Source: Candidatus Liptonbacteria bacterium
GTDB taxonomy: Bacteria > Patescibacteriota > Minisyncoccia > UBA6257 > 2-01-FULL-56-20
DNA: 64,000 bases
Reading direction: 5' to 3'
Assembly (NCBI GenBank): GCA_016204355.1
Contig: JACQKT010000016.1
Span: 47,269 to 111,268, forward strand
Shown here: in pieces, positions 6,610 through 42,055 of the stretch
Position numbering within the stretch: the stretch's first letter is position 1
How the letters are laid out: each line of letters begins with the position of its first letter
Notes under the pieces: model-generated
Database searches by the model: none
Told to the model about the DNA's origin: nothing
What the model saw: the letters and a program-made list of their open reading frames with translations, nothing else
Position numbers and translations under genes: made by a program

Positions 6610-6680
6610 AAGGAAGTTATATCGCGGGCGAATGAATGGCGCAAATTGCCGGATAAATGTCAGTACTTTATTTCATAGCC

Positions 6681-8222
6681 CTATGTCAGATTTTGAAGCA
6701 GGCTTTCTCCGTTCATGTCCGACGGTTTGTCGATGTTCATCATCTCGAGAACGGTCGGGGCGACGTCCGAAAGCACTCCGGTAATTTCTCCCAAGGGATT
6801 TCTCCAGTTCGGAAATTTCCTTCCTTTGAATTCTGGCGCAACAAGATAAAACGGCACGGGGTTCGGATCGTGCTGCGTTTCGAATTCTCCCGTTTGCGGG
6901 TCCATCATTTCTTCAAGGTTGCCGTGATCAGCCGTGATGATTATTGCCGTATCGTCGTTAATGCCTACTTTTAATATCTTGCCGATTTCTTCATCGATTA
7001 CTTTCGCCGCTTTCAGTCCCGCCTGAAAATTTCCCGTGTGGCCTATCGTGTCGGCATTCGCGTAATTCGCAAGTATAAAATCGAAAGAACGGTTCGTTAT
7101 TGCTTCCACGATTCTGTCTGTCACCGCCGGCGCCATCATCTCCGGGCGCTCGTCGATATGCGGGACGGAAAGGGAGGGAATAAGAACGCGATATTCGTTT
7201 TTGAAGGCAGCTTCGCGGTAGCCGTTGAAAAAATATGTCACGTGGGCGTATTTGTAGGTTTCCGCGACGCGCAGCTGCGTTTTGCCGGAGTCCGAGAATA
7301 TTTTACCCAAAGGATTCTCCACGCTATCGGGAGGGAATGCGGCCGAGACGGGGAACTTGCGCTCGTATTGAGTCATGGTCGTTATGGAAAGGTTTTCGAA
7401 TTTCCTCACGGGGAATTTGTCGAATCTATCTGCTATGAAGGATTCCGCGAGCTGGCGTATCGAATCTTCCCGGAAATTGAAAAATATGACGGAATCGTTT
7501 TCCTGAACGGATTTTTCAGGAGATACCCGTATGGGGGAGAGGAATTCTTCGCTGGGATTTTTCGAATAATTGTTTTTTATTGTTGTCGCCAAATCCGTGG
7601 TTGTTTCGCCGTCTGTCCCTGTGATGCAATCGTAAGCGCGCCGGGTTGCCTCCCAGTTCTGGTTTCTGTCCATGCCGTAAAACCTTCCCGTGAGAGTGGC
7701 AAGTTTTTCAAGCGGTATTTCTTTGAGAAATTTTTCCAAAGTATGAGGCTCGCTGTCTTTGCCGTCGGCGAACAAATGCAATTTCACGTTGTCGACTTTT
7801 TCCTGTCCGGCCATTCTCAGCAAAGCGTCTATATGGTCGAGCGAAGCATGAACGTTCGCTTTTGAAAGAAGGCCGATAAGATTTACTCCCGAATTGTTTT
7901 TCCGCGCGTGTTCGAAAGCTTTTTTAAGCGCATGGTTGGCGAAAAAACTGCCGTCGCGTATCGAAAGTTCTATCCGCGGGTAATACTGATAAATCACTTT
8001 TCCGGCTCCGATGGTGAGGTGTCCGACCTCGCTGTTTCCCGTTTCGCCCCACGGAAGACCGACGGCTATGCCTGAGGCCTGCAGACTTCCCGCGGGAAAG
8101 TTTTCTTCAAGCCAAAGGAAATTTTCCGGTTTCGCCATGTAAATGGGGTTGGAATCGTCTTTTCTGCCTATTCCCCATCCGTCGAGAATCAATAAAACAA
8201 CAGTCTTTTTCATTGGTTTCAA
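6681..8222 (-). CDS. gpmI: 2,3-bisphosphoglycerate-independent phosphoglycerate mutase
   Basis: VLLILDGWG, SEVGHLTIGAG, ITADHGN motifs; 513 aa. Confidence 0.85.
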   Translation of the reverse strand: MKPMKKTVVLLILDGWGIGRKDDSNPIYMAKPENFLWLEENFPAGSLQASGIAVGLPWGETGNSEVGHLTIGAGKVIYQYYPRIELSIRDGSFFANHALKKAFEHARKNNSGVNLIGLLSKANVHASLDHIDALLRMAGQEKVDNVKLHLFADGKDSEPHTLEKFLKEIPLEKLATLTGRFYGMDRNQNWEATRRAYDCITGTDGETTTDLATTIKNNYSKNPSEEFLSPIRVSPEKSVQENDSVIFFNFREDSIRQLAESFIADRFDKFPVRKFENLSITTMTQYERKFPVSAAFPPDSVENPLGKIFSDSGKTQLRVAETYKYAHVTYFFNGYREAAFKNEYRVLIPSLSVPHIDERPEMMAPAVTDRIVEAITNRSFDFILANYANADTIGHTGNFQAGLKAAKVIDEEIGKILKVGINDDTAIIITADHGNLEEMMDPQTGEFETQHDPNPVPFYLVAPEFKGRKFPNWRNPLGEITGVLSDVAPTVLEMMNIDKPSDMNGESLLQNLT

Positions 8223-8534: not shown

Positions 8535-10058
8535 ATGAATATTTCGTTTCCGCTTTTGGCAGGCGGGGTGGTTTTGGGTTTGTTAATAGGGTATTGGGCG
8601 AGGCATTTTCTGGCTTCGAAGCAGGCAGGCTCAATTGAGAGAAAAAGCAAGGAAGCCCTCGAAGAGGCCGAATCTAGATCCAAAAAAATAGTTTTGAGCG
8701 CGGAGGAAAAAGCCGCGGCGGTTTTGGTTGAAGCGAAGGAAGACGAAAAGAAACGGCAGTCTGAGATACGAGAAATAGAAAAACGCCTCATGCAGCGGGA
8801 AGAATCGCTCGATAAAAAAATATATTCCCTCGAAGAAGGAGAAAGTTCCCTAAAGAAAAAGGAGGAGTCTCTGAAGGAGAAAGAAAACGAGATCGGAGAA
8901 CTGAAAAATAAAATACAAAAAGAACTCGAGAAGGTAAGCGGCATAGGCAGAGAAGAGGCGAAAGCAGCGCTTTTCAAGGAAGTCGAGGACCAAAGCAGAA
9001 AAGATCTGGCCGAAACATTGCAGAAACTAGACCGCGAAAGAAAGGAAGAAGTCGAAAAGAAGGCGGTGGATATAATGACAACCGCGCTCCAACGTTACGC
9101 CCGTTCGCATATTTCCGAACTTACGACCACGCTCTTCCCTTTATCCGACGAGGAATTTAAAGGAAAAATAATAGGACGGGAGGGGAGGAATATCCGCGCA
9201 TTGGAACGCGCAACCGGAGTCGAGTTCGTGATAGACGAAACTCCGGATAGCGTTGTCATATCGTCTTTCGACCCGTTCCGCAGGGAGGTGGCAAGGCTTG
9301 CTTTGGCGAAGCTTGTTAAAGACGGACGCATACAGCCGGCGAAAATAGAAGAAAAAGTGGAGGAGGCAAAAGAAGAATTGCAAAAGAGGATGATAGAAAT
9401 AGGAGAAGAAGCCGCCGCAGAAATCGGGATTTACGATCTTCCAAAAGAAATAATCCAGCTTCTCGGCAGACTTAATTTCCGGACCAGTTTCGGACAGAAC
9501 GTTCTAACTCACTCCATAGAAATGGCCCACTTGGCAGGAATGATGGCGGCGGACCTGGGGCTCGATGTTCAGGTCGCCAAAAAGGGCGCCCTTCTTCACG
9601 ACATAGGAAAAGCGATAGACCACGAAGTCGAAGGGACGCATGTCGATCTCGGCAGGAAACTTCTGAAAAAATACGGGATAGACGAACGCGTTATCCAGGC
9701 GATGCAGTCGCACCATGAAGAATATCCATACGCGATTCCCGAGGCGTTCATAGTCACGGCGGTGGACGCACTGTCGGCTGCGAGACCGGGGGCGAGGCGT
9801 GGCACTCTCGAGAATTACGTGAAACGGCTTGCGGACCTCGAAAAAATAGCGGGAGAATTTCCCGGAGTGAAAAACGCGTACGCGATTTCCGCCGGACGCG
9901 AGCTGAGAGTTTTCGTCATTCCCGAAAAGATAGACGATTTCGGCGCGCTGGAATTGGCGCGCCAAATTGCCAATCGTATACAATCCGAGTTAAAATACCC
10001 CGGCGAGATAAAAGTAAACGTCATTCGCGAAGTCAGAGCGGTGGAGTATGCCAAGTAA
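8535..10058 (+). CDS. rny: Ribonuclease Y
   Basis: N-terminal TM, long coiled-coil, KH region (IIGREGRNIRALE), HD domain (LLHDIGKA...HH). Confidence 0.9.
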   Translation: MNISFPLLAGGVVLGLLIGYWARHFLASKQAGSIERKSKEALEEAESRSKKIVLSAEEKAAAVLVEAKEDEKKRQSEIREIEKRLMQREESLDKKIYSLEEGESSLKKKEESLKEKENEIGELKNKIQKELEKVSGIGREEAKAALFKEVEDQSRKDLAETLQKLDRERKEEVEKKAVDIMTTALQRYARSHISELTTTLFPLSDEEFKGKIIGREGRNIRALERATGVEFVIDETPDSVVISSFDPFRREVARLALAKLVKDGRIQPAKIEEKVEEAKEELQKRMIEIGEEAAAEIGIYDLPKEIIQLLGRLNFRTSFGQNVLTHSIEMAHLAGMMAADLGLDVQVAKKGALLHDIGKAIDHEVEGTHVDLGRKLLKKYGIDERVIQAMQSHHEEYPYAIPEAFIVTAVDALSAARPGARRGTLENYVKRLADLEKIAGEFPGVKNAYAISAGRELRVFVIPEKIDDFGALELARQIANRIQSELKYPGEIKVNVIREVRAVEYAK

Positions 10059-10141
10059 TATGGATTTAAAAATGGAGATTTATGATTTGTGAATGGGAAA
10101 AATCTTGATTCGTAAATCTTAAATCGTAAATCATCGACATC

Positions 10142-11542
10142 ATGCTTCTAAAATTCTCCAAATTTTTCCTATACGTTTCGCTTTTCAGCGTCTTGATAGT
10201 GATGATATCGACGTTCTTTCCTTTTATCGGAGGGAAGGATTATTTTTTCAGAACGGCGATACAATTGGCGCTGATTTTCTTCATTTTGTGGTGGGGATTT
10301 GAGGCCTCCGACGGAGAAGTTCTGGCGCGGCTGAAAGATATTTTCAGAAAGCCTCTGTTCGCAGCAGTTTCGGCGTTCGCTGCGGCTTTCATGCTGTCCA
10401 CGATTTTCGCATTCGATTCGCACGCCGCTTTCTGGTCCAATTACGAGCGAGGAGAAGGAGGATTCCAAATGCTTCATTACTATGCCTTATTTTTCCTTTT
10501 GGTTTTTCTTTTCAAAGAAAAAAAAGACTGGGAAAGGATTTTCTGGGTTTCCGTGATAGCGGCCGTAGGCATGATACTTTACGGAGTCGGCGCGGCGGTT
10601 TTCGTATCGAATCCCGACGGAAGCCTTTCCAATCCTTTCGGTTTTGTCGGGCCTTATTCCGATTCGGGAAAATTAACGGCGCCAACTTTTATAGGAAGAC
10701 TTTTTTACACGGAGCGATTCCAGGGGTCTCTCGGAAATCCGGCATATGTGGCTCCTTACCTGATGTTCGCGATTTTTTATCTTTTGTGGCTGTGGTTTTC
10801 CGAAAAAAATAAGACTTTGCCGAAAAAATTCGTATATGGAGGACTTGGAGCGCTGTTTTTGGTTTTTTTCCTTCTTTCCAAAACGAGAGGTACTTTTGTC
10901 GGCCTGGCGGGAGCCGTTTTCGTTTTCCTTCTTGTTTTGGCATTCAGTTATCCGAAATTAAGGAAATGGTTCGCGATTTTGATAGCGGCTTTGGCGATAA
11001 TTTTTGGTTCGCTTGTTTACTACAGGAATACGGATTTCGTGAAAAATCTTCCGGCAGGGCGGCTCTTCGATATCGAACTTACCGACAGAACCTTCCAGAC
11101 AAGGCTTTGGACATGGAATTCCGCGTGGCAGGGTTTTTTGGAGAAACCCTTATTGGGATGGGGTCCGGAAAACTTTTCGGGCGTTTTCGACAAATACTTC
11201 GATCCGCGCCATTTCATTCCGGGACAGAACTCGGAAACGTGGTTCGATTACGCGCACAGCATATTTTTCGACTATCTGGTTGAGCTGGGCCTGATAGGAT
11301 TCCTGAGCCACTTCGCGATATTCGCGATATTCTACTGGGAATGGTTTAGAAAATTCCGGCATAAAAACCCCCTTCTTAAGGCGTTGATAGTTTCTCTTCC
11401 CACAAGCTATCTGATACAGGGCTTGGCGCTTTTCAATGTTTTGCCGATATACATAAACCTCTTTTTGTTCCTCGCTTTCGCGTGTTACGAACTTTATTAT
11501 TCCAGGAACGAAACGGTCCATGAAATTTCAAGCGCAACATGA
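10142..11542 (+). CDS. O-antigen ligase/polymerase family membrane protein (Wzy_C-like)
   Basis: ~10-12 TM helices; SKTRGTFVGLAG loop motif; large periplasmic loop; 466 aa. Confidence 0.55.
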   Translation: MLLKFSKFFLYVSLFSVLIVMISTFFPFIGGKDYFFRTAIQLALIFFILWWGFEASDGEVLARLKDIFRKPLFAAVSAFAAAFMLSTIFAFDSHAAFWSNYERGEGGFQMLHYYALFFLLVFLFKEKKDWERIFWVSVIAAVGMILYGVGAAVFVSNPDGSLSNPFGFVGPYSDSGKLTAPTFIGRLFYTERFQGSLGNPAYVAPYLMFAIFYLLWLWFSEKNKTLPKKFVYGGLGALFLVFFLLSKTRGTFVGLAGAVFVFLLVLAFSYPKLRKWFAILIAALAIIFGSLVYYRNTDFVKNLPAGRLFDIELTDRTFQTRLWTWNSAWQGFLEKPLLGWGPENFSGVFDKYFDPRHFIPGQNSETWFDYAHSIFFDYLVELGLIGFLSHFAIFAIFYWEWFRKFRHKNPLLKALIVSLPTSYLIQGLALFNVLPIYINLFLFLAFACYELYYSRNETVHEISSAT

Positions 11543-12168
11543 ATCCCGAAATTAAAAAAATAATAGCCGTTTCGGTAACCATACTGATTGTGATAATCGC
11601 GTATTACGGAACCTATCTTCCGATGAGAAAATCGATGGTTTTTATAGACACAATGCAGCTTTCCGGCAGGGTCAGGACAATAACGGATTTCGAAAACGTT
11701 TTCTCTGTGCCGCTCGACTATCCTTCGCCGGTCGGGCAGGAAGAACTTGTTCGGAGCGTTGCAAACACCGTTGCGAACAACGTCAAAAATATTTCCGATC
11801 CCAGGGGCGTGGAGGAACTCATTGGCTTCATCGAGAAATACTACAACCCGATCATAGAAAGAGGGAGGGGAATGAGTTTCGGCCAGGATGTTTACATAAT
11901 GGGAATGATGAACGAATTCGCCTATTTGCAGACACGCGAACCGAAATATCTCCAAAATGCCGAAAGGTATTTCAAGCAGGAACAGGCTTTGGGACCAAAA
12001 CGCCCGCAATCCCTTTACGGACTTATGGATGTTTACAGGCTTGAGGGAAACGTGGATGAATTCAAAAAAATCGCGGAACAGGTTTTGCGCCAGTGGCCGA
12101 ACGACGCGAGAACAAAGACGTTTATCGAAGAAATGACGGAAAATTCGTCAGGCACGAAAACTCAATAA
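11539..12168 (+). CDS. Hypothetical membrane-anchored protein (N-terminal TM + helical/TPR-like soluble domain)
   Basis: ATGA overlap with the upstream gene; no recognisable catalytic motif. Confidence 0.4.
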
Positions 12169-20634: not shown

Positions 20635-21831
20635 TTAAGAAATAACCTTGAACTTCGGGATGGAAACTATGAATTTCCCGCCCCTCTTGAAGAATCCTTT
20701 TTCTCTTTCCTTCTTTTTGAAGGATTCGATGAACCCCCACGGGAGAACGAAGAAATAATCGGGCTTTTCTGCCCTTGCATTACCCTCTTTTATTATCGGA
20801 ACCAATGTTCCGACGGTGAACTTGCCCCATTTTTTGGGGTCTTTGTCGGCAGCGGCGGCGATCAGTTTCGAGTTCAAGCCGTAATACTGGAGAATCGTGT
20901 TTCCCTTCGTTGAAGCTCCGTAAGCGTAAACCTTCTTTCCTTTTTTAACTTCCTTTTTGATGAACTCGACGGTTTTTTTCTTGTTTTCGACGAGACGTTT
21001 CGCGAATGCCTTGTAGTCGAATTTCAGTTCGCGGTATTTTATGCTTCCTTTCTTCAATTTTCTCGCGAACAGGCGGTAGCTGCCGCCGTTTATGCCGTTT
21101 TCCTCGACTTTGAAAATTTCCAATCCGTTTTTCTCAAAAAGATAAACCAGCGAGGGATAAGAATAAAATTCCAAATGTTCGTGGCAGATATTTCCAACGT
21201 CGTTTTTGAGAATCATCGGCTTGAGCGTCATCATCTGGGCGATGAAAAGGCCGTCGTCGGCGAGAACGCGCGCCGCGTCCCTGACGAACTGACTCGGGTC
21301 TTCCATGTCGTAGAACATCCCGATGGCCGTGATGATTTTCGCTTTCGGCAGACCGAGCTTGTCATATGTTTTCTTGTACCAGAAATCGTGGATGGCATAA
21401 TCGGCGTTTTTGCGGAGTTTCGCCTGAAGGTTGTCCGCCGGCTCACAGCCAACGCGAATGTATTTCTTCGGAACGAAACCGAGCATTGTGCCGTCGTTGG
21501 CGCCGATATCGAGAAAAACATCGCCTTTTTTCGGCTTGGCCATTTTTATGGTCTGCGAAACTATTTGCTTGAGGTCGCTGACGATGACGTTATTTATTCC
21601 GGACTCGTACCAGTAGTGGCGCGAGTACATAAGTTCCTGCGGAGCCGTGTGCTTGAGTTGAAGAAGGTCGCATTTCGGATTTTGGCAGAGGACCAGTTCG
21701 AGAGGCGAGCGCATTCCTTTTTCTTTTCTGCTTTTTACGAAAGTGGAAACGTAAAGATTTCCGAGATTGAGAATGCTTTTGAGTTTATTCGACCCGCAGA
21801 GCCGGCATGTTTTTCTTGTGATTATTTTCAT
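20635..21831 (-). CDS. SAM-dependent methyltransferase with N-terminal zinc ribbon and C-terminal C-methyltransferase domain (TylCIII/NDP-hexose 3-C-methyltransferase-like)
   Basis: Start taken at MKIITRKTCRLCGSNK...CQNPKC (4-Cys ribbon); LDIGANDG SAM motif; C-terminal Methyltransf_14-like region. The upstream 84 codons of the ORF are intergenic. Confidence 0.65.
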   Translation of the reverse strand: MKIITRKTCRLCGSNKLKSILNLGNLYVSTFVKSRKEKGMRSPLELVLCQNPKCDLLQLKHTAPQELMYSRHYWYESGINNVIVSDLKQIVSQTIKMAKPKKGDVFLDIGANDGTMLGFVPKKYIRVGCEPADNLQAKLRKNADYAIHDFWYKKTYDKLGLPKAKIITAIGMFYDMEDPSQFVRDAARVLADDGLFIAQMMTLKPMILKNDVGNICHEHLEFYSYPSLVYLFEKNGLEIFKVEENGINGGSYRLFARKLKKGSIKYRELKFDYKAFAKRLVENKKKTVEFIKKEVKKGKKVYAYGASTKGNTILQYYGLNSKLIAAAADKDPKKWGKFTVGTLVPIIKEGNARAEKPDYFFVLPWGFIESFKKKEREKGFFKRGGKFIVSIPKFKVIS

Positions 21832-21877
21832 GAGGTATATGTTAAAGGAAATGTTATTAAGGGGCAATATCCGGGGG

Positions 21878-21905
21878 TTGACAGCTGCCGTCCATAGGCT
21901 ATAAT
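21878..21905 (+). promoter_or_regulatory. Near-consensus sigma70 promoter (TTGACA-16 nt-TATAAT), 11 nt before the ATG (near-leaderless)
   Basis: Read directly; drives the RHH-cysD-cysN operon. Confidence 0.6.
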
Positions 21906-21916
21906 TACCTGTAATT

Positions 21917-22129
21917 ATGAAATACACCACCGTTTCCATACCGGAGCCGCTCAACAAAAAGCTCCAAAAAATCATCAAAAACAGCGGGTTTGCCTCGACT
22001 TCTTCTTTTGTTACCTTCATTCTCCGGGAGGTTCTTTCCCAGCAGAACGAAGACGGCGAAAAAGAAAAAGTGTCTTTTGACAAAGAAAGCGTAAAGGAAC
22101 ACTTGAGAGCGCTCGGCTATCTTAAATAA
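21917..22129 (+). CDS. Ribbon-helix-helix (CopG/MetJ-like) DNA-binding protein
   Basis: TVSIPEPLNKKLQKIIKNSGFASTSSFVTFILREVL matches the RHH beta-strand/helix pattern; 70 aa. Confidence 0.6.
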   Translation: MKYTTVSIPEPLNKKLQKIIKNSGFASTSSFVTFILREVLSQQNEDGEKEKVSFDKESVKEHLRALGYLK

Positions 22130-22153
22130 AATATCAAGCCAATTTTCAATAAC

Positions 22154-22939
22154 ATGAATGCGCGTTTAAAAGAACTCGAAGAAAAAAGCATATCGGTCAT
22201 AAGGGAAGCGAAGGCGCGCTTCAAGAATATCGCCATGCTTTGGAGCATGGGCAAAGATTCCACAGTAACGCTTGGGCTCGCCCGGAAAGCGTTTCTCGGA
22301 GAAATTCCGTTTCCCGTAATACATATCGATAACGGCATAGATTTTCCGGAAACTTACGAACTCCGCGAGAAAGTTTCCAAAGATTGGGGATTCGAAATGG
22401 TTGTCGAAAAAAGCATAGTCAAACGGGATAAAATTTCCGGAGTGGATTGCTGCGGCGCGAACAAAACGGACGCGCTCAAAAAAGTCATGGATGAAAGAAA
22501 AATCGACGCGCTAATAGTTTCCATACGCCGCGACGAACACGGCATCCGCGCCAAGGAACGCTATTTTTCGCCGCGCGACAAGCAGTTCAACTGGGATTAC
22601 AAAAATCAGGCGCCGGAAATTTGGGACTATCTTTCGGATTTTCCGGGGAGCGACCATGTCCGCGTGCATCCGCTTCTTCACTGGCAGGAAATAGACGTTT
22701 GGAAATATCTTAAAGCCGAAAATCTTCCGGTCAATCCGCTTTATTTTTCGAAGAACGGAAAAAGATTCCGTTCGCTCGGATGCACGAAGTGCACGGTGGC
22801 AATGGATTCGGAAGCCAAAACCATAGACGAGATAATCGCCGAACTCGAAAAAACAACCGATTCCGAACGCGGCGGCCGAGCGCAGGACAAAGAAAAGGAA
22901 TATGTGATGCAGCAGTTGCGGGCGTTAGGGTATATGTAA
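22154..22939 (+). CDS. cysD: Sulfate adenylyltransferase subunit 2 (PAPS-reductase-fold ATP pyrophosphatase)
   Basis: LWSMGKDSTV PP-loop; overall collinear with E. coli CysD including the C-terminal ...RALGYM tail. Confidence 0.8.
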   Translation: MNARLKELEEKSISVIREAKARFKNIAMLWSMGKDSTVTLGLARKAFLGEIPFPVIHIDNGIDFPETYELREKVSKDWGFEMVVEKSIVKRDKISGVDCCGANKTDALKKVMDERKIDALIVSIRRDEHGIRAKERYFSPRDKQFNWDYKNQAPEIWDYLSDFPGSDHVRVHPLLHWQEIDVWKYLKAENLPVNPLYFSKNGKRFRSLGCTKCTVAMDSEAKTIDEIIAELEKTTDSERGGRAQDKEKEYVMQQLRALGYM

Positions 22940-22965
22940 TTTTGGGTTTAGGTGTAAGCGCCAGT
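22940..22965. repeat. Intercistronic hairpin repeat, partial copy in inverted orientation (left end of insertion)
   Basis: TTTTGGGTTTAGGTGTAAGCGCC is ~identical to the 17969-17987 arm. Confidence 0.55.
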
Positions 22966-22973
22966 TAAATATT

Positions 22974-23410
22974 ATGGATGAGAAACAAAACCGGAAAACA
23001 ATTAAAAACTTCACGGATTTAGAAGTTTATCAAAACAGTTATAGTGCCTGCATTCGCGTTCATAAAGAATTACTGCCCCTACTTCCAAAGAACGAGAAAT
23101 TTGATTTATGCGATCAACTTTCTCGTTCAACAAAGGCGGTTCCAAGATTAATTGCTGAAGGATATGGCAAAAAGCATCAGAAAGAAAGCGGGATTCCAAA
23201 AATATTTAGACGATGCTATGTCTGAATGTAATGAAACTATTGTCGGAATATCACAATGCCGAGATATTTACTTACGGTATCGACAAAAATTTATGCAGCG
23301 AATTAATGGAAATATACAGCATAACTGCGCGTCAACTTTTTCGATTAGCCGAAGCATGGGATAAATTTGCTTTGGGTTACAGAAATAAAAAAACCAGCGG
23401 CCAAAACTAA
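22974..23410 (+). pseudogene. Four-helix-bundle protein (23S rRNA intervening-sequence protein family), disrupted by two +1 frameshifts
   Basis: Frame 0: FTDLEVYQNSY...LSRSTKAVPRLIAEGYGKK. The family pattern continues in frame +1 (GFQKYLDDAMSECNETIVGISQCRDIYL) and then frame +2 (LCSELMEIYSITARQLFRLAEA). Confidence 0.5.
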
Positions 23411-23414
23411 ACCC
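23393..23414 (+). repeat. Intercistronic hairpin repeat, partial copy abutting the cysN ATG (right end of insertion)
   Basis: CGGCCAAAACTAAACCC-ATG versus CGCCTAAAACTAAACCCAAACCC-ATG at 31441-31466. Confidence 0.55.
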
Positions 23415-24584
23415 ATGCCCACTCCAAGCATAGTAGTTCTTGGCCATAAGGACCACGGTAAATCCACATTTCTGGGACGGCTTCTTTTTGAGACAAACTC
23501 GGTTCCCGCCGATAAAGTGCAGACAATCAAAGAAATCGACGCCGAAGCCGGGCGTCCTTTCGAATGGGCGCATCTTCTCGACAGTTTCAAAGAAGAACGT
23601 GAGCAGGAAATGACGTACGATACCGCTTCGGTCTTCGTAAACGGCCGCGATGGGGCCTTGTACGTTTTCATAGACGTTCCCGGGCATTCCGAGCTTGTCC
23701 ACCAAATGATCTCCGGCGCTTCCAGGGCGGATATGGCGATTTTGATGGTTTCTGCCAAAGAAGGAATAGACGAAATGAGCGTCGGGCACCTTATGCTCGC
23801 GGAGTTCCTCGGCTTGGAAAAACTAATCGTCGCCGTAAACAAGATGGACGAGTTCGGGTATGAAGAAGCGGCGTTCAGCGGCATAAAAGAAAAGGTGGAA
23901 AAAATACTGGTCGGCAAATTTTCCGCGGAAGACGTTCATTACATCCCTCTTTCCGCGCGCGAGGGCGAAAACATAACGAAAGCTTCTTCGAAAATGCAGT
24001 GGTACGAAGGTTCAAGCGTTTTTGAAAAAACGGAAGAAATTATCGGTGGAATGAAGCCAGTTTCTTTGCCGTTGCGCGCGGTTGTCCAGGATGTTTACAT
24101 CCGCGCCGGAAATCGGATAGCGGCAGTCAGCGTCAAAAGCGGCGAAATGAAAAGAGGAGAAAAAATCGTTGCGCTGCCGTCCGGAAAAGTTTTTGCGGCC
24201 GATAAATTACTTTCCGTTTCCGGGGACGAAACGCAATCGGTCAAAGCAGGGGAAAACGCCGGAATTTTCGCCGAAAAGGAATGGGAAATTTCCCGCGGAA
24301 CAATCATCGCTCCAGAAAATAACAGGCCGAATTTCGCGAAAGACGCCGACAGCGAGATTTTTCTTTTCGAAAATTTCAAACCGAACGAAGCGGCAACCGT
24401 GGAATGCGGTTCGCTGAACGCTTCCCAGGGATTGATCCCGTCAGCCGCGCCGAATAAAATCCAGAAGCTGAAACTTAACCTTTCTTCCCCGGTTCTTTTC
24501 GACAAAGAAGAAACTTTTTTGAACAAGTTCGTGATAAAGCAAGGCGGTGATATAATCGGGGTCGGCAGGATAAAAGACTTTTAA
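23415..24584 (+). CDS. cysN: Sulfate adenylyltransferase subunit 1 (GTPase, EF-Tu-like), short form without APS-kinase domain
   Basis: GHKDHGKSTF (G1), DVPGH (G3), NKMD (G4). Start placed at ATG 23415, supported by the shared upstream repeat; the ORF extends further upstream into the pseudogene. Confidence 0.75.
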   Translation: MPTPSIVVLGHKDHGKSTFLGRLLFETNSVPADKVQTIKEIDAEAGRPFEWAHLLDSFKEEREQEMTYDTASVFVNGRDGALYVFIDVPGHSELVHQMISGASRADMAILMVSAKEGIDEMSVGHLMLAEFLGLEKLIVAVNKMDEFGYEEAAFSGIKEKVEKILVGKFSAEDVHYIPLSAREGENITKASSKMQWYEGSSVFEKTEEIIGGMKPVSLPLRAVVQDVYIRAGNRIAAVSVKSGEMKRGEKIVALPSGKVFAADKLLSVSGDETQSVKAGENAGIFAEKEWEISRGTIIAPENNRPNFAKDADSEIFLFENFKPNEAATVECGSLNASQGLIPSAAPNKIQKLKLNLSSPVLFDKEETFLNKFVIKQGGDIIGVGRIKDF

Positions 24585-24586
24585 TC

Positions 24587-25948
24587 ATGTCCAAAAAACC
24601 CAACGTAATACTTATAACCCTCGACGCGTTGCGCCCGGACCATCTGGGCGTTTACGGCCACAAGAAAAATACAAGCCCGTTTCTCGACTCGCTTGCGGAA
24701 AGAGGGGTTGTTTTCAAAAACTCTTTTTCGACCGGTTCGGCTACGCCGCAATCTTTCCCGGGAATACTGTCTTCGACTTACCCGCTGGATTTCGGCGGAT
24801 ATTCTCGGGAAGCGTTAAATAAAAGGACCTTGATTTCGGAGGTTTTTCAAAAAGCCGGTTATAAAACGATGGGATTCCACTCCAACGCCTATCTTTCGGA
24901 ATATTTCGGATATGGCAAAGGATGGGATGTTTTCAGGTATCTTAACTACTTCAAGAACAGCGGCGTTTCGCGGGCGATGCGTAGCAGCACCTGGCAGGCG
25001 AAGTTCGCCAAAAAACTTTTCGACTGGGAAACGAAAGGAGCCGAGAAGAAAACGATTTTTGGCCGCATAGCGAAACTGCTCGAGCCGGTTATTTCCACGC
25101 TGAGAAAAATCTATCTGAACATAGTCCGGCCGATTCCTCCCTATTACACTGCCTTCGAGATGAACGAAGCGGTAAAAGAAGAAATAAAAGAGAAACAGAA
25201 CAAGCCGGTTTTTCTTTGGGTTCACTACATGGACGCGCACGACCCTTACGGGCTTTTTCTGCGCAAAGGAAAAAATTTTTTCCCGAAAATGAAGTCGTAT
25301 TTTCTCGATTATCTTATGACTTTTTTCGGGGAATATCCGAAAGTGAACCGGCTTTTCAGGAGGTTTTATCTGGAGATGTACGACGAAGGCATACGGAATA
25401 TAGACAACGCGCTTAAAGAGCTTTTTGCTCGTCTTTCCGAAAGGGGAATCCTAAACGACGAAACCGCTGTTTTCATAACCGCTGACCACGGCGAAGAATT
25501 CGGCGAACACGGTGGGTTTATACATCCGCAAAAAGCTTTCGGCGAGAACATAAAAGTTCCTCTGATTGTTGTCGCTCCGGAGAAATTTGCCGGAGAGCCG
25601 GGGAAAACGGAAACGCCGCGTTCGCTTATCGACCTTGCGCCGACGATGCTCGCGTATTCCGGAATCTCTCAGCCGGCGAATTTCAGGGGTAAAAATATTT
25701 TCGACGGCGAAGAAAGAGACGTCATAATAGAACTTTCAACGCACGAAGCCGACCTTTCCGGAATCAGCCTTAAGGCGTCGGCGATAATTTCGGAAGGCCA
25801 CAAACTTATAAAAATGAAATCATGCAGTTTGCTTTTTTCGCTCGACGACCCGAGGGACGAAAAAAATCTTTTCGGGAAAAACGAAAAAATTGATTCGTTG
25901 CTCGGGAAGAAGCTTGAAAAATTCTTGAATTCAAACCGCAACAAATGA
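24587..25948 (+). CDS. Sulfatase-like alkaline-phosphatase-superfamily hydrolase/transferase, cytosolic, Thr at the nucleophile position
   Basis: ITLDALRPDHLGVYG, TSPFLDSLAERGVVF. The sulfatase signature C-x-P-S-R is replaced by T-P-Q-S-F. No signal peptide or TM segment. Confidence 0.6.
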   Translation: MSKKPNVILITLDALRPDHLGVYGHKKNTSPFLDSLAERGVVFKNSFSTGSATPQSFPGILSSTYPLDFGGYSREALNKRTLISEVFQKAGYKTMGFHSNAYLSEYFGYGKGWDVFRYLNYFKNSGVSRAMRSSTWQAKFAKKLFDWETKGAEKKTIFGRIAKLLEPVISTLRKIYLNIVRPIPPYYTAFEMNEAVKEEIKEKQNKPVFLWVHYMDAHDPYGLFLRKGKNFFPKMKSYFLDYLMTFFGEYPKVNRLFRRFYLEMYDEGIRNIDNALKELFARLSERGILNDETAVFITADHGEEFGEHGGFIHPQKAFGENIKVPLIVVAPEKFAGEPGKTETPRSLIDLAPTMLAYSGISQPANFRGKNIFDGEERDVIIELSTHEADLSGISLKASAIISEGHKLIKMKSCSLLFSLDDPRDEKNLFGKNEKIDSLLGKKLEKFLNSNRNK

Positions 25949-27021
25949 GAAGTCTTTATATTTTATTGGCAGGCGCGGACCAGTTCCCGAAAAGCTTTTT
26001 CGAAGGCAAAGGAATTTTTTTCCGGCCGTACGACGGTGGGAGCCCCAACGCACTTTTTTGGAACGATTTTTACGAAACGTGCGCCAAAAAAGGAGTATCT
26101 GTTAAATCCTATACGGAATGGAACAGAGAAAAGTCCAAGCCCGACGACATACTGCTCGTTTTAAACCACCCCGGCGAAACGTTGCTCTGGCGTCTTTATT
26201 ATTATCTCCGCTATCCCAAGGCGGGAGGGGGATTTTTACTTAAACGCAGAACATTTTTCCGCGAAAATTATAAATTTTTCAAAAGGAGGATTTTGATGCA
26301 GCTCGAACCGCTTGTCGCGATGCCATACGTGTATTCGCAGCTCGACGACGTTGTAAGGGCTGGTTTTTACGACAAAATTTTCATTACGAGCCGCGTTTCG
26401 AACGAAAAGTGGGAATACTTCAACTATTTCGAACATCGCGCCAGAAATATAATAAGCCCGCATTTTGACGCCTCCAAAACAAAGTACATAACGATGGTGA
26501 ATTCGAATGTCAGGCCGCATTCGCTAAAAGGCGACCTCTACGGCGAGCGGCTGAAAGCTATAAAATTTTTCAGCAATTCCCTCGATTTCGACCTGTACGG
26601 CTTCTATTGGGATTTGCCGGTAAGGCATCCGTTGTATTTCGGCTACGACAAATACGTAAAGAAATCCTGGCGCGGAAGAATCCCGGACAAATTGAAAACC
26701 GTCAGCGAATACAAATTCTCAATTTGCTTCGAAAACGGCGCGTATCCGGGATGGGTCAGCGAGAAAATTTTCGATTGCCTGGCCGCCGGTTCCATCCCCG
26801 TTTATCTCGGAGCTCCGGACATAGAAAAAATCGTTCCGCAGGATTGTTTCGTAGATTTCAGAAAATTCGGAAGTTATGCGGAGTTAAATAAATTTTTGCA
26901 CAATCTTTCCGAGAAGGAACTGGAAGAATACCGAAATAGGATAAAAAAATTTCTTAGCGCACCTGCGGATTACGGCAAAGTGAAAAAATTCGCCGATAAG
27001 GTTATTGGGGTAATCAAGTAA
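25945..27021 (+). CDS. Glycosyltransferase family 10 (alpha-1,3/4-fucosyltransferase-like)
   Basis: YKFSICFENGAYPGWVSEKIFDCLAAGSIPVYLG matches the GT10 FEN-x-YVTEK-type motif. Confidence 0.6.
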   Translation: MRSLYILLAGADQFPKSFFEGKGIFFRPYDGGSPNALFWNDFYETCAKKGVSVKSYTEWNREKSKPDDILLVLNHPGETLLWRLYYYLRYPKAGGGFLLKRRTFFRENYKFFKRRILMQLEPLVAMPYVYSQLDDVVRAGFYDKIFITSRVSNEKWEYFNYFEHRARNIISPHFDASKTKYITMVNSNVRPHSLKGDLYGERLKAIKFFSNSLDFDLYGFYWDLPVRHPLYFGYDKYVKKSWRGRIPDKLKTVSEYKFSICFENGAYPGWVSEKIFDCLAAGSIPVYLGAPDIEKIVPQDCFVDFRKFGSYAELNKFLHNLSEKELEEYRNRIKKFLSAPADYGKVKKFADKVIGVIK

Positions 27022-27029
27022 AAGGAAAT

Positions 27030-27872
27030 TTACTGCGTTGTGCTCGAGGCGGTAGATGTCGGATTCGGGTTGTATGCGCCGATGTAATACGGCAATGCGT
27101 ATTTTTGCGCTTCGGTGAGGGATTGGTAGCTGTTGCGGGTGTCGCCACGGGCAACATCTGAACTTAAAAGAATCTCTTGCGGATAAGCGGCTTGTAGTTG
27201 CTTGACTCTCGAATCGTTCTCAGCCAATTCTCGCAATTGAGCGTTTGATAAGTTAGGATTGACACTGATTAGCTTGGTCACGCGCGGAAAAGAATTGACG
27301 TGATACCTGTTTTCTTTTTCGCTGTATCTTGTCGGCAAAAGGTAGGTCACTCCTGGCTGGAGCATATAACCAGCTTCAGGATGGTCAGCCGGAACCAAAA
27401 GATCGCCGTAGTTTATTCCGCCTACTACATATAAAACACCGTCTATGTATCCCCCTGTCTGACTAACAATAATAATGCCTCGTGCGCTTCCCTTGATATT
27501 GTAGGCAACCTCCGCTTCAAAATATGTTTGTGGGCGAAGCGCACCTGAGGGTGTGTCGATTTGTTTTATAATCTTCGCTACGAATACGTTATGCGATCCT
27601 CCGACTAATATTCTGTCGTTTGAAAAATCCGCCGCCCATTCATTGTGAATTTCTCTTATAACCAACGGCCCGCTTTTTTCAGCTCCATTCGTGGTTGTTG
27701 CACCTTGCGTAACACCAGATATTTCATCGGACGATTGTGTTACTTTTTCAGTAACAGCAGGAATACTCACGATAATGTCTGGTTCCGAAATTCTGTAGAA
27801 GTAAAAATAGACACTGGTGCCAATAACCACAAGCACGACAATACTTCCTACCAATAAACTTAATTTAGTCAT
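27030..27872 (-). CDS. Hypothetical secreted/membrane-anchored protein
   Basis: N-terminal TM anchor, Thr/Ser-rich linker, C-terminal PNPTSTASSTTQ; no identifiable domain. Confidence 0.4.
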   Translation of the reverse strand: MTKLSLLVGSIVVLVVIGTSVYFYFYRISEPDIIVSIPAVTEKVTQSSDEISGVTQGATTTNGAEKSGPLVIREIHNEWAADFSNDRILVGGSHNVFVAKIIKQIDTPSGALRPQTYFEAEVAYNIKGSARGIIIVSQTGGYIDGVLYVVGGINYGDLLVPADHPEAGYMLQPGVTYLLPTRYSEKENRYHVNSFPRVTKLISVNPNLSNAQLRELAENDSRVKQLQAAYPQEILLSSDVARGDTRNSYQSLTEAQKYALPYYIGAYNPNPTSTASSTTQ

Positions 27873-38057: not shown

Positions 38058-38136
38058 TTACCTAACTATAGTATCAAACTTGCCGCCAAAAAGTTACTTT
38101 GACACATCGTTTTCTTTGTTTTATTATTTTGAAACT

Positions 38137-39150
38137 ATGATAGTTGTATGCGCTCCTCTTCGCATAAGTTTTGTCGGCGGCGGAACAGACCTACCGGATT
38201 TTTACCGCAGGCATCCTGGCCGCGTGATTTCCACGGCAATAGATAAATTTGTCTACGTTGCCATAAACAGGACGCCGCTAATTCCAAAAATATCGGCGCG
38301 GTATTCCATTTCCGAAACCGTCGATAAACCGGACGATCTCCAGCACACGCGCATAAAGGCGGCGCTTTTGGATCTCGGAATAGACAAAGGAATAGAAATA
38401 GGCTCTTTTGCGAGCTTGCCGGCCAAGACCGGGCTGGGCTCTTCCTCCACCTTTTCTGTGGCCTTGATGAAGGGACTGCATGCCTTCAAGGGAAATAAGC
38501 TCGACAAAAAGGAAACCGCGGAAGAAGCTTCGCGGCTCGAAATAGAACTTCTCGGCGAGCCGATAGGCAAGCAGGACCAGTACGCCGCGTCTTTCGGCGG
38601 GTTAAACGTGGTCCAGTTCAACCCCGACGAGAGCGTAAACGTCGACCCTGTTCTTTTGGACTATAAAAAACGTCTCGGACTGGAAGGCAGTATGCTCTTA
38701 TTCTTCACGGGGATTACCCGCATGGCATCGAGCGTTTTGACGGAACAAAAATCTAACATCGACAAAAAATTCGAGACATTGAAAGAAATGGCCGAGTCGG
38801 TTCACGATTTTAAAGGACGGCTTTTGGCCGGCGACTACAAAGGGCTCGGCGAAATGCTTCATCAGGGATGGTTGAGAAAAAAGAGTTTGGCCTCGAATGT
38901 TTCCAACTCCGTCATTGACGACATTTACGGCGCCGGAATAAATGCCGGGGCGTGGGGCGGAAAAGTGCTCGGTGCCGGCGGAGGAGGATGCGTCATGTTC
39001 CTTGTTCCTGAAGGTAAAAAACCGGCGGTTCGCGAAGCGGTTGCCAGAATCGCCAAAGAAAAGGAACTCAAAGATTTCCAGGAAATTCCCGTAAAATTCG
39101 TCCAGTCCGGCGTCGAAATACTTTTTAACGGCGACGAAATGAAAAAATGA
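38137..39150 (+). CDS. hddA: GHMP kinase, D-glycero-alpha-D-manno-heptose 7-phosphate kinase-like
   Basis: RISFVGGGTDL, PAKTGLGSSST (GHMP ATP motif); first gene of a heptose cassette. Confidence 0.7.
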   Translation: MIVVCAPLRISFVGGGTDLPDFYRRHPGRVISTAIDKFVYVAINRTPLIPKISARYSISETVDKPDDLQHTRIKAALLDLGIDKGIEIGSFASLPAKTGLGSSSTFSVALMKGLHAFKGNKLDKKETAEEASRLEIELLGEPIGKQDQYAASFGGLNVVQFNPDESVNVDPVLLDYKKRLGLEGSMLLFFTGITRMASSVLTEQKSNIDKKFETLKEMAESVHDFKGRLLAGDYKGLGEMLHQGWLRKKSLASNVSNSVIDDIYGAGINAGAWGGKVLGAGGGGCVMFLVPEGKKPAVREAVARIAKEKELKDFQEIPVKFVQSGVEILFNGDEMKK

Positions 39151-39758
39151 AAGATTTTATCACCGAATTTTCAAAAAAATCAATTGAGGCGATAGAAAAT
39201 CTTCCGCACGAAGAAATTGCCAAAGCATTGAACATTCTGCAGGGAGTTTACGAGCGCGACGGCAGAGTCTATATCTTCGGCAACGGCGGTTCGTGGGCGA
39301 TAGCCGGACACTGGGTTACCGATTTCAACAAAACCGTTTTCAGTCATCACCTCGGCGAGCACAGCAAGCGTTTCAGAGTCAGCAGAATTCCGGCGACCGA
39401 AGAGGAACTTACGGCATGGGCGAACGACATCGGTTACGACATGGTTTTTGCCGGCCCGCTCGACAATGTTTTGGAAGATTGCGATGTCGTAATAGCAATT
39501 TCAAGTTCTGGAAATTCAACAAACATAATTAAGGCAGTCGAAGTGGCAAAAAAACACAAAGTTCCCGTGATCGGTCTTTCGGGATTCGACCCGTCGAATA
39601 AGCTGAACCAGATTGCCGACGTAAAAATTCACGTGCCGACGCCGAAGGGGGAATATGAGGTTGTTGAAAGCACGCACGACACGATAATGCATCTGATGAC
39701 CAAGTATTTCAAAAACTACTTCGACCATTTGGTGGAAGGGAAGCAAGGTAATGGTTGA
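39147..39758 (+). CDS. gmhA: D-sedoheptulose 7-phosphate isomerase (SIS domain)
   Basis: IFGNGGSWAIAGH, AISSSGNS motifs. Confidence 0.75.
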   Translation: MKDFITEFSKKSIEAIENLPHEEIAKALNILQGVYERDGRVYIFGNGGSWAIAGHWVTDFNKTVFSHHLGEHSKRFRVSRIPATEEELTAWANDIGYDMVFAGPLDNVLEDCDVVIAISSSGNSTNIIKAVEVAKKHKVPVIGLSGFDPSNKLNQIADVKIHVPTPKGEYEVVESTHDTIMHLMTKYFKNYFDHLVEGKQGNG

Positions 39759-41856: not shown

Positions 41857-42055
41857 ACAGAATTCCTTTCCGCGGCGATGCCGCAAAATAAATCGGTGTA
41901 TTAGTATTTCAATCCGCAGTTTTAAGGCCTGCGGAACTGCCGTGCATTTAATCATAAAAATGGTAATTTGTCAAAGAAATTTGTATGGACGAAATTGTTA
42001 TTAAAAAATGCGGCGGGCGGTTTTGGTAAACCGCGTCGCCGCGTGCAGGACCGAA

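What the first reader, a model, noticed from the sequence alone, without database searches (positions are those of the whole stretch)
21878..25948. Sulfate-activation operon lacks APS kinase and sulfotransferase and is followed by a cytosolic Thr-type sulfatase-like enzyme
A near-consensus, almost leaderless promoter drives an RHH regulator, cysD and a short cysN (no fused CysC). The next gene is a sulfatase-superfamily protein with Thr at the formylglycine position and no export signal. No APS kinase or PAPS sulfotransferase is recognisable in the window, although the locus otherwise encodes glycan tailoring (methylation, fucosylation). Either PAPS enzymes lie elsewhere, or APS itself is the sulfuryl (or adenylyl) donor for an alkaline-phosphatase-superfamily transferase acting on a glycan or nucleotide sugar. 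The second option would be a new sulfation route.
Basis: inference. Interest (0 to 1): 0.6.

Follow-up and report, generated by a model that had tools for sequence, protein, structure and literature searches.

The report
Kinase-less glycan sulfation operon
A tiny-genome (CPR) bacterium has an operon that activates sulfate and then encodes, in place of a normal sulfotransferase, a cytoplasmic sulfatase-like enzyme that most likely adds sulfate to a surface sugar chain, possibly from APS without the usual PAPS step.

Summary
A perfect sigma-70 promoter (21878-21905) drives RHH, cysD, a decayed four-helix-bundle pseudogene, a short cysN, a signal-less sulfatase-fold protein with Thr53 at the formylglycine position, and a translationally coupled GT10 gene. 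About 50 window ORFs gave no APS kinase or PAPS sulfotransferase.

Relatives of the Thr/Ser-type sulfatase-like enzyme sit within 10 kb of sulfate-activating genes in 18 distinct loci across several bacterial and archaeal phyla. Only two of these (Asgard archaea, using Sat) also carry APS kinase. Searching from the short CysD subfamily gave 80 metagenome loci (653 kb): 52 hold an alkaline-phosphatase-superfamily gene and none holds APS kinase. The 70-aa RHH protein is a conserved partner across both domains.

The idea is not wholly new. Zaretsky et al. (2025) showed that the sulfatase-like proteins Agl30 and Agl31 are the N-glycan sulfotransferases of Halobacterium salinarum. Their best structural matches (6HHM, BT1596) are also the best for this protein. 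That paper does not name the donor.

Best reading: a CysDN-fed, sulfatase-fold glycan O-sulfotransferase. APS as direct donor is plausible but unproven, because the rest of the genome could not be searched.

The parts
21878..21905 (+). Consensus sigma-70-type promoter (TTGACA, 16 nt, TATAAT). It lies in the 85-bp gap between the divergent C-methyltransferase gene and the RHH gene.
   Evidence: The only 12/12 match in 21500-27400; sequence read. The ATG at 21917 is 11 nt after the -10 hexamer.
21917..22129 (+). 70-aa ribbon-helix-helix protein, the first gene of the operon. It is a conserved partner of sulfate-activation modules and has a C-terminal LRALGYL tail.
   Evidence: Weak NikR N-terminal and RHH_1 hits. 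Homologues at roughly 30-69% identity lie next to CysDN or Sat-CysC in CPR, Dehalococcoidia, Asgard archaea and haloarchaea, and in 49 of 80 short-CysD loci.
22154..22939 (+). cysD, sulfate adenylyltransferase small subunit (short 261-aa subfamily; PP-loop SMGKDS).
   Evidence: NF003587 at 294.6 bits (cutoff 195); PF01507 at 3.8e-39. The four aligned members are 57-59% identical to it, and the 80 metagenome relatives 55-92%.
22974..23410 (+). Decayed four-helix-bundle (23S_rRNA_IVP / TIGR02436) gene, read in three frames, filling the cysD-cysN spacer.
   Evidence: PF05635 at 1.4e-12 on the first 83-aa piece only. The frame changes are visible. An intact gene occupies the same position in L042, L147, L158, L160 and L165.
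23416..24584 (+). cysN-like GTPase subunit, 389 aa, with no fused APS kinase. The mechanical ORF begins at TTG 23367.
   Evidence: PF00009 at 3e-36. CysN models score 205-213 bits, below their cutoffs, and an EF-1alpha subfamily model scores 244. G1, G3 and G4 motifs are seen in the translation. Public gene calls give 389 aa.
24587..25948 (+). Cytoplasmic sulfatase-fold enzyme with a Thr53 nucleophile, proposed to be a glycan O-sulfotransferase.
25945..27021 (+). GT10 (fucosyltransferase-family) glycosyltransferase, overlapping the previous gene by 4 nt; the last gene of the operon.
   Evidence: PF00852 at 3.2e-17. It is directly adjacent to the sulfatase-like gene in L005, L007, L008 and L089, and within 5 kb in L009 and L014.
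20635..21831 (-). Divergently transcribed sugar C-methyltransferase, a conserved neighbour. The start is set at the MKIITRK methionine, not at the longer ORF that runs to 22083.
   Evidence: PF08421, PF13489 and PF08484. The same neighbour occurs in L001, L003, L005, L009, L013 and L014. The start codon was read.

Best explanation
The operon RHH-cysD-cysN-(sulfatase-like)-GT10 is a self-contained module for sulfating a cell-surface glycan on the cytoplasmic side.

Proposed steps:
1. CysD and CysN make APS from sulfate and ATP, with GTP hydrolysis pulling this unfavourable step.
2. The sulfatase-fold enzyme is the sulfotransferase. Its metal-bound Thr53 (Ser in relatives) takes the sulfuryl group from the activated donor.
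3. A Ser/Thr-O-sulfate cannot break down the way a formylglycine adduct does. The enzyme therefore holds the group until a sugar hydroxyl accepts it (ping-pong transfer).
4. The coupled GT10 enzyme acts on the same glycan, which is built from the GDP-sugars made elsewhere in the 10-52 kb cluster.
5. The donor is most likely APS itself, because this CysDN subfamily is never found beside an APS kinase. PAPS is not excluded.
6. The RHH protein is taken to be the autoregulator acting at the consensus promoter.

Shown: gene identities, fold, the substituted active-site residues, the synteny statistics, and the published archaeal precedent.
Inferred: sulfotransferase activity, the covalent intermediate, the donor, the acceptor, and the RHH role.
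For: - Tight operon: a 2-nt gap between cysN and the sulfatase-like gene, and a 4-nt overlap with the GT10 gene.
- The same gene order occurs in L005/L006 (66% identity) and L089 (59%).
- cysD-cysN sits next to homologues in L016, L032, L042, L097, L108 and L110.
- 18 distinct loci of the Thr/Ser-type clade have CysDN or Sat within 10 kb. That is 16 of the 80 genome loci. By my estimate, under 1% would be expected for a single-copy gene in a genome of several megabases.
- Only 2 of those 18 loci carry APS kinase.
- From the CysD side: 80 loci, 653 kb. CysN is present in 68, RHH in 49, an alkaline-phosphatase-superfamily gene in 52 (36 of 48 loci of at least 5 kb), and APS kinase in 0.
- TauE-family anion permeases in the same operons point to a sulfur oxyanion as substrate.
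- The fold is that of S1 sulfatases, not lipid-donor transferases. The formylglycine motif is replaced.
- The protein has no signal peptide.
- From my own knowledge: formylglycine-to-Ser mutants of arylsulfatases trap a stable sulfo-enzyme.
Against: - No enzyme assay or glycan analysis exists for this organism.
- Asgard loci L019 and L026 place APS kinase in the RHH-Sat operon beside a homologue, so PAPS may be the family's donor there.
- CPR homologues L009, L014 and L015 have no sulfate-activating gene within 10 kb. L001, L003 and L012 carry a different RHH-led module instead.
- Only 64 kb of a 115-kb contig, from a genome of unknown size, was examined.
- An orphan P-loop kinase (47203-47748) cannot be excluded as a non-orthologous APS kinase.
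- The basic residues that bind sulfate in S1 sulfatases (Arg and Lys) are lost. H313 is, from memory, more like the phosphoethanolamine-transferase active site.
- In 11 Sat-linked loci the third gene is a PAPS_reduct-family protein and the context is not glycan-related. The family's job may differ there.
Confidence: 0.55

Rival explanations
1. The enzyme has the same sulfotransferase role, but the donor is PAPS. An APS kinase encoded outside the window, or a non-orthologous kinase such as the orphan P-loop protein at 47203-47748, converts the operon's APS to PAPS.
For: - In the Asgard loci, RHH-Sat-CysC lies directly beside a homologue.
- The window holds an IMPase-family gene (42056-42907) with a weak CysQ hit of 59 bits. 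An IMPase-family gene also follows a homologue in Haloferax massiliensis locus L052.
- Every characterised carbohydrate sulfotransferase with a known nucleotide donor uses PAPS (general knowledge).
- The P-loop protein is a confident kinase fold (pLDDT 91).
Against: - APS kinase is present in 0 of 80 short-CysD loci and in only 2 of 18 sulfate-linked loci.
- The P-loop protein's best structural matches are polynucleotide, adenylate, shikimate and gluconate kinases, with no APS kinase in the top 50.
- A homologue of the P-loop protein lies in a housekeeping context.
- The IMPase-family protein scores higher for HisN (101 bits) and FBPase/IMPase (72 bits), and it sits beside a GalT-like HIT protein. 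That pairing fits nucleotide-sugar metabolism.
Confidence: 0.22
2. The sulfatase-like protein is not a sulfotransferase. It is a cytoplasmic phospho-group transferase or hydrolase of the alkaline-phosphatase superfamily that acts on the glycan or a nucleotide sugar. Its place after cysN is a matter of shared regulation, and CysDN serves another purpose.
For: - A Ser/Thr nucleophile with His at position 313 is, from memory, typical of phosphoryl-transfer members of the superfamily.
- Several close CPR homologues lack nearby sulfate-activating genes and sit beside a PF01663 gene, two genes with a nucleotidyltransferase-like motif, and HD-domain genes.
Against: - The enzyme family is linked to CysDN or Sat in several bacterial and archaeal phyla.
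- CPR bacteria have no evident other use for APS in this window. No CysH or sulfite reductase was found.
- Overall sequence and fold are closest to S1 sulfatases.
- The Agl30/Agl31 precedent also argues against this reading (PMC11980604).
Confidence: 0.12
3. The enzyme attacks APS at phosphorus rather than sulfur. It either transfers AMP to an acceptor or hydrolyses APS or pyrophosphate, acting as a control valve or pull for sulfate activation, as nucleotide pyrophosphatases do with a Thr nucleophile.
For: - PF01663 (nucleotide pyrophosphatase family) genes are the most frequent alkaline-phosphatase-superfamily partners of this CysDN subfamily. A roughly 230-aa form lies between cysD and cysN in 32 of 80 loci.
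- The window protein also gives a PF01663 hit at 4e-09.
Against: - It is translationally coupled to a glycosyltransferase inside a glycan cluster. That fits a tailoring enzyme better than a housekeeping valve.
- Hydrolysing the product of a GTP-driven reaction would be futile.
Confidence: 0.08

Closest known systems
Agl31 (VNG1057C) and Agl30 (VNG1056C), the N-glycan sulfotransferases of Halobacterium salinarum (Zaretsky et al. 2025, PMC11980604)
   Same: - Both are alkaline-phosphatase-superfamily, sulfatase-like proteins encoded in a glycan-assembly cluster.
- Agl31 is soluble and cytosolic, like the window protein.
- Haloarchaeal homologues at 28-35% identity share the Thr-type motif.
   Different: - The window protein is bacterial (CPR) and is co-transcribed with cysD and cysN.
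- The paper never mentions a donor, a nucleophile or sulfate-activating genes.
S1 formylglycine-dependent sulfatases (e.g. FA22070 6HHM, BT1596 5G2T, BT1918 7OZ8, human arylsulfatase A)
   Same: - Retains the first metal-binding Asp (D13), the DH pair (D300, H301), and H98 and H218, which I assign by motif comparison to the two catalytic His.
   Different: - The formylglycine motif is absent: T53 for Cys/Ser, F57 for Arg, H313 for Lys.
- There is no signal peptide, and no maturase gene was seen among the window ORFs scanned.
- The context is biosynthetic, not degradative.
Phosphoethanolamine and phosphoglycerol transferases (EptA/MCR-1, EptC, LtaS, OpgB)
   Same: - Thr/Ser nucleophile with a T-x-x-S-x-P spacing and a His at the position of H313 (comparison made from memory).
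- These enzymes are transferases that work through a covalent enzyme intermediate.
   Different: - Those enzymes have an N-terminal membrane domain, act outside the cytoplasm and use lipid donors. This protein has none of these features.
Canonical bacterial glycan sulfation (NodP/NodQ plus NodH; CysDNC plus a PAPS sulfotransferase)
   Same: CysD/CysN-type sulfate activation dedicated to modifying a glycan and encoded with the tailoring genes.
   Different: - There is no APS kinase domain or gene here or in 80 related loci.
- There is no P-loop PAPS sulfotransferase family.
Arylsulfate sulfotransferase (ASST), the known PAPS-independent bacterial sulfotransferase
   Same: Works without PAPS through a covalent sulfo-enzyme intermediate, by a ping-pong mechanism (general knowledge).
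   Different: ASST is a periplasmic beta-propeller with a sulfo-His intermediate and phenolic sulfate donors. Its fold is unrelated and it has no link to sulfate activation.

Membership tests
S1 formylglycine sulfatase | C/S-x-P-x-R motif providing the formylglycine residue | tested here: not met
   T53-P-Q-S-F aligns to S-T-P-A-R of 7oz8. The column holds T or S across 42 relatives and T across most of the wider clade.
S1 formylglycine sulfatase | Sulfatase fold with N-terminal alpha/beta domain and C-terminal subdomain | tested here: met
   [not shown]
S1 formylglycine sulfatase | Export signal and a formylglycine-generating maturase (FGE or anSME) | tested here: not met
   The first strand starts at residue 7. 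No FGE-sulfatase or radical-SAM maturase family appeared among the window ORFs scanned. The rest of the genome was not searched.
Agl30/Agl31-type sulfatase-fold sulfotransferase | Alkaline-phosphatase-superfamily sulfatase-like protein encoded within a glycan assembly cluster | tested here: met
   It lies inside a 10-52 kb cluster of Wzy, Wzx, glycosyltransferase, GDP-sugar and methyltransferase genes. It shares its top structural neighbours with those reported for Agl31 and Agl30.
Agl30/Agl31-type sulfatase-fold sulfotransferase | Sequence orthology to Agl31 or Agl30 | not tested
Only haloarchaeal homologues at 28-35% identity were seen.
Agl30/Agl31-type sulfatase-fold sulfotransferase | Required and sufficient for sulfation of a glycan in vivo | not testable with these tools
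   This needs genetics or biochemistry. The evidence here is synteny with sulfate activation only.
Phosphoethanolamine / phosphoglycerol transferases (EptA, MCR-1, LtaS) | N-terminal multi-span membrane domain with an extracytoplasmic catalytic domain | tested here: not met
   The 453-aa protein begins directly with the catalytic strand. Matches to these families cover only the region around the conserved DHG motif, at 17-41 bits against cutoffs of 493-1250.
Phosphoethanolamine / phosphoglycerol transferases (EptA, MCR-1, LtaS) | Closest structural and sequence neighbours are members of this group | tested here: not met
   [not shown]
CysDN sulfate adenylyltransferase | CysD PP-loop subunit scoring above the curated cutoff | tested here: met
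   NF003587 at 294.6 bits against a cutoff of 195. The SMGKDS motif is present.
CysDN sulfate adenylyltransferase | CysN GTPase subunit scoring above the curated cutoff | tested here: inconclusive
   G1, G3 and G4 motifs are present and the gene is adjacent to cysD. However, TIGR02034 scores 205 against a cutoff of 336, and an EF-1alpha subfamily model scores higher, at 244. The pairing with CysD is conserved in 68 of 80 loci.
Canonical PAPS pathway | APS kinase (CysC, PF01583), fused to CysN or encoded nearby | tested here: not met
   There is no Pfam hit in the window ORFs. The same queries detect L019 and L026 at 1e-41 to 1e-45. The count is 0 of 80 in related loci. The whole genome was not searched.
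Canonical PAPS pathway | P-loop PAPS-dependent sulfotransferase (Sulfotransfer_1 to _5 and related families) | tested here: not met
   No such family appeared among about 50 window ORFs at E<=0.001.

The most novel reading that the evidence does not exclude
RHH-CysD-CysN plus an alkaline-phosphatase-superfamily enzyme is a widespread sulfation system in bacteria and archaea that works without APS kinase. In it, APS is the direct sulfuryl donor and a Ser/Thr-O-sulfate enzyme intermediate carries the group. This would be a third mechanistic class of sulfotransferase, beside the PAPS-dependent and arylsulfate-dependent ones. It would also identify the unknown donor of the archaeal Agl30/Agl31 enzymes.
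Probability: 0.33. Interest if true: 0.8.

Novelty: new variant of a known kind. Interest (0 to 1): 0.6.

Why it matters
Sulfated surface glycans are known in archaea and suspected in many uncultured lineages. The enzymes were identified only in 2025, and their sulfate donor is still unknown.

This locus and its roughly 100 relatives show that the sulfatase-fold enzymes are wired directly to sulfate activation, and almost never to APS kinase. That turns the donor question into a simple in-vitro test: APS against PAPS, and a mass shift on Thr53.

If APS is the donor, textbook statements that biological sulfation needs PAPS would need revising. Annotation pipelines that call these proteins 'sulfatase' would be mislabelling a biosynthetic family. 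It would also show that CPR bacteria, which have almost no biosynthetic metabolism, spend ATP and GTP on sulfating their envelope.

Tried and rejected
1. P-loop protein 47203-47748 as a hidden APS kinase.
   - No Pfam, NCBIfam or PDB sequence match.
   - It belongs to an orphan family of 6 proteins.
   - The confident model matches generic nucleotide and polynucleotide kinases, not APS kinase.
   - A homologue lies in a housekeeping context.
   - Verdict: not supported, not excluded.
2. IMPase-family gene 42056-42907 as CysQ. Its best scores are HisN and FBPase/IMPase, all far below cutoff. Its neighbour 41059-41955 looks GalT-like by eye (RPWQ, DCPLC and HLHWH motifs) and gives only a weak HIT hit. 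I read the pair as nucleotide-sugar metabolism.
3. Walking along the 115-kb contig with the end genes. One end gave only a 3.6-kb contig and the other was not on record.
4. AFDB fold search, intended to find Agl7 or Agl31 by name. The library was unavailable.
5. Which protein family Agl7 (HVO_2046) belongs to. Neither the papers held nor their supplements say.
6. Haloferax massiliensis locus L052 as an agl5-15 cluster. The gene content did not show it.
7. Haloarchaeal RHH contexts (L033, L044). Naive ORF calling in high-GC DNA was uninformative.
8. Literature on an APS-dependent or alkaline-phosphatase-superfamily sulfotransferase donor. Nothing relevant was found.

Full report
**What is in the sequence**

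The window comes from a Candidatus Liptonbacteria (CPR/Patescibacteria) metagenome-assembled genome. The sulfatase-like protein is 100% identical to an NCBI protein of that organism, on a 114,963-nt contig.

Between 21878 and 27021 the + strand carries one compact operon:

| Element | Coordinates | Evidence |
|---|---|---|
| Promoter TTGACA-16-TATAAT | 21878-21905 | The only 12/12 match in the region; the ATG is 11 nt after the -10 hexamer |
| RHH protein, 70 aa | 21917-22129 | Weak NikR N-terminal and RHH_1 hits |
| cysD | 22154-22939 | NF003587 at 294.6 bits, cutoff 195 |
| Four-helix-bundle pseudogene | 22974-23410 | Broken by at least two frame changes |
| cysN-like GTPase | most likely 23416-24584 | 389 aa in public gene calls; no APS-kinase domain |
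| Sulfatase-fold protein, 453 aa | 24587-25948 | PF00884 at 1.4e-42 |
| GT10 glycosyltransferase | 25945-27021 | Overlaps the previous gene by 4 nt |

Everything else it described is there.

**The sulfatase-like protein**

- In the HMMER alignment to the S1 sulfatase 7OZ8, Thr53 falls on the Ser that becomes formylglycine. Phe57 falls on the motif Arg, and His313 on the sulfate-binding Lys.
- In an alignment of 42 relatives at 40% identity or more, all annotated ones from Patescibacteria, position 53 is Ser or Thr. D13, S56, H98, H213, H218, D300, H301 and H313 are invariant.
- The wider clade, across about 85 loci from bacteria and archaea, mostly has Thr there.
- The AlphaFold2 model is confident (pLDDT 91.9). 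The first strand starts at residue 7, so there is no signal peptide.

**Is a PAPS pathway hidden in the window?**

I scanned about 50 window ORFs against Pfam. No APS_kinase or Sulfotransfer family appeared. The same CysC queries find real APS kinases in other loci at 1e-41 to 1e-45.

I examined three candidates:
- **The 181-aa P-loop protein (47203-47748).** It belongs to an orphan family of six. It folds confidently as a small kinase, but it matches polynucleotide, adenylate, shikimate and gluconate kinases rather than APS kinase. A homologue lies among housekeeping genes.
- **The IMPase-family protein (42056-42907).** It scores best for HisN, then FBPase/IMPase, then CysQ, all far below cutoff.
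- **Its neighbour (41059-41955).** It has GalT-like motifs and a weak HIT hit. This pair fits nucleotide-sugar metabolism.

The rest of the window from 10 to 52 kb is one large glycan cluster. It contains GDP-mannose dehydratases, GDP-heptose genes, aminotransferases, Wzy, Wzx, glycosyltransferases and methyltransferases.

**Comparative evidence, starting from the enzyme**

- The order RHH-cysD-cysN-enzyme-GT10 recurs in L005/L006 (66% identity) and L089 (59%).
- Among 80 genome loci found with the family profile, 16 have sulfate-activating genes within 10 kb:
  - cysD-cysN in L016, L032 and L042.
  - RHH-Sat-CysC in two Promethearchaeota loci, L019 and L026. The Sat was confirmed at 491 bits.
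  - A tight Sat, enzyme, PAPS_reduct-family trio in 11 loci from Bacillota, Planctomycetota, Thermotogota, Bathyarchaeia, Actinomycetota, Synergistota and Spirochaetota.
- Only the two Asgard loci carry APS kinase.
- The link is not universal. L009, L014 and L015 have nothing of the kind nearby. L001, L003 and L012 carry a different RHH-led module: a PF01663 protein, two paralogues with a nucleotidyltransferase-like motif, and HD-domain proteins.

**Comparative evidence, starting from CysD**

A profile of the short CysD subfamily retrieved 80 metagenome loci at 55-92% identity, 653 kb in total.

| Feature | Loci (of 80) |
|---|---|
| CysN | 68 |
| RHH | 49 |
| TauE-family permease | 22 |
| Any alkaline-phosphatase-superfamily gene (sulfatase-like, PF01663-like of about 460 or 258 aa, or a roughly 230-aa form between cysD and cysN) | 52 (36 of 48 loci of at least 5 kb) |
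| APS kinase | 0 |

This CysDN subfamily is therefore a dedicated partner of alkaline-phosphatase-superfamily enzymes and is not coupled in cis to APS kinase.

The RHH protein is strikingly conserved from CPR to haloarchaea (YTTVSIP...SSFV.F.LRE...LR.LGYL). Its tail resembles the invariant CysD C-terminus, LRALGYM.

**What is already known**

The words PAPS, APS, donor and adenylyl do not occur in that paper. A follow-up paper (PMC12624080) mentions neither PAPS nor a sulfate donor. Agl7 of Hfx. volcanii is needed for sulfation of a dolichol-phosphate-linked hexose, but I could not establish its protein family.

A sulfatase-fold sulfotransferase is therefore a known kind, recently discovered. 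Its donor and mechanism remain open.

**Most likely mechanism**

1. CysDN makes APS, with GTP hydrolysis supplying the pull that APS kinase supplies in Sat-based systems.
2. The metal-activated Thr53 of the sulfatase-fold enzyme takes the sulfuryl group.
3. A Ser/Thr sulfate ester cannot eliminate as a formylglycine adduct does. From my own knowledge, formylglycine-to-Ser arylsulfatase mutants trap exactly such an intermediate. The group therefore waits for a sugar hydroxyl.
4. The coupled GT10 enzyme acts on the same glycan.

I give 0.55 to this overall reading, and about 0.33 to the sharper claim that APS is the direct donor.

The dichotomy is suggestive: Sat appears with CysC in the Asgard loci, while CysDN never appears with CysC. 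It could also mean that the enzyme accepts either nucleotide.

The rivals, with evidence and refutation tests given separately, are:
- a PAPS donor made by an unlinked kinase (0.22);
- a phospho-group transferase unrelated to sulfate (0.12);
- attack on APS at phosphorus (0.08).

**Limits**

- No whole-genome search was possible.
- The metagenome loci are often short.
- Agl31's sequence was not compared.
- The 11 Sat-linked trios are not in glycan contexts and may do something different.

**Verdict**

This is a new variant of a recently recognised kind. It is of moderate to high interest, because it makes the donor question directly testable.

Noticed in passing
window 22940-23415; also L005 8193-8660, L089 10858-11085, L099 1122-1985, L093 1215-2036, L042 17405-17776: The cysD-cysN junction is a hotspot for selfish or orphan genes. 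The window holds a frameshifted four-helix-bundle (PF05635) pseudogene there. Intact four-helix-bundle genes occupy the same slot in five other loci. GIY-YIG, LAGLIDADG and NUMOD3/Vsr-like endonuclease genes occupy it in others.
   Followed up: partly
window 22105-22129 and 22913-22939; RHH homologues listed: The RHH protein ends in LRALGYLK and CysD ends in LRALGYM. The RHH tail is conserved from CPR to haloarchaea, including loci with Sat-CysC and no CysN. Its binding partner is therefore unknown.
   Followed up: partly
L102 3376-4083, L120 10806-11504 and 30 further metagenome loci: A roughly 230-aa alkaline-phosphatase-superfamily protein (PF01663 at 27 bits, starting MIILALDALD) is encoded between cysD and cysN in 32 of 80 short-CysD loci. 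Its function is unknown.
   Followed up: partly
L001 4867-9671; L003 5276-9743; L012: In CPR relatives that lack cysDN, the sulfatase-like gene faces an operon made of RHH, a PF01663 protein (466 aa), two paralogous 357/360-aa proteins and an HD_4-like protein. The two paralogues carry a GRSDIDIMVFG nucleotidyltransferase-like motif and have no Pfam hit. A homologue of the PF01663 protein (34% identity) sits between Sat and CysC in Asgard locus L026.
   Followed up: partly
L077 8790-12027, L068 8817-12024, L025 (Sat 6383-7645; 9995-12091), L043 4850-8108, L045 9890-13460 and six more: A tight three-gene operon occurs in seven phyla, outside glycan clusters and without APS kinase. It consists of Sat, a sulfatase-like protein of about 400 aa (motif GPYTQASFPGILTSSYY) and a PAPS_reduct-family protein (TWTGGKDST).
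   Followed up: partly
window 47203-47748 (-): An orphan 181-aa P-loop kinase (six relatives in 5.8 billion proteins) sits among sugar epimerase genes. Its model is confident, with generic nucleotide and polynucleotide kinase matches. One homologue lies next to a small HIT protein.
   Followed up: yes
window 41059-42907 (-): An IMPase-family gene is followed by a 298-aa protein with GalT-like motifs (RPWQ, DCPLC, HLHWH) and no Pfam hit above threshold. This may be an NDP-sugar phosphorylase and sugar-phosphate phosphatase pair, as in GDP-L-galactose metabolism.
   Followed up: partly
window 38080-40993: A four-gene set for a nucleotide-activated heptose: GHMP kinase, SIS isomerase, nucleotidyltransferase and HAD phosphatase. 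The same set occurs near the sulfatase-like gene in L001.
   Followed up: no
L005 4277-5907; L001 80-1694; L008 20326-21222: Close relatives carry a PF03547 (Mem_trans) permease, and in L001 and L005 also a His_Phos_1 phosphatase, beside the C-methyltransferase. Both are missing from the window, which has no recognisable sulfate transporter.
   Followed up: no
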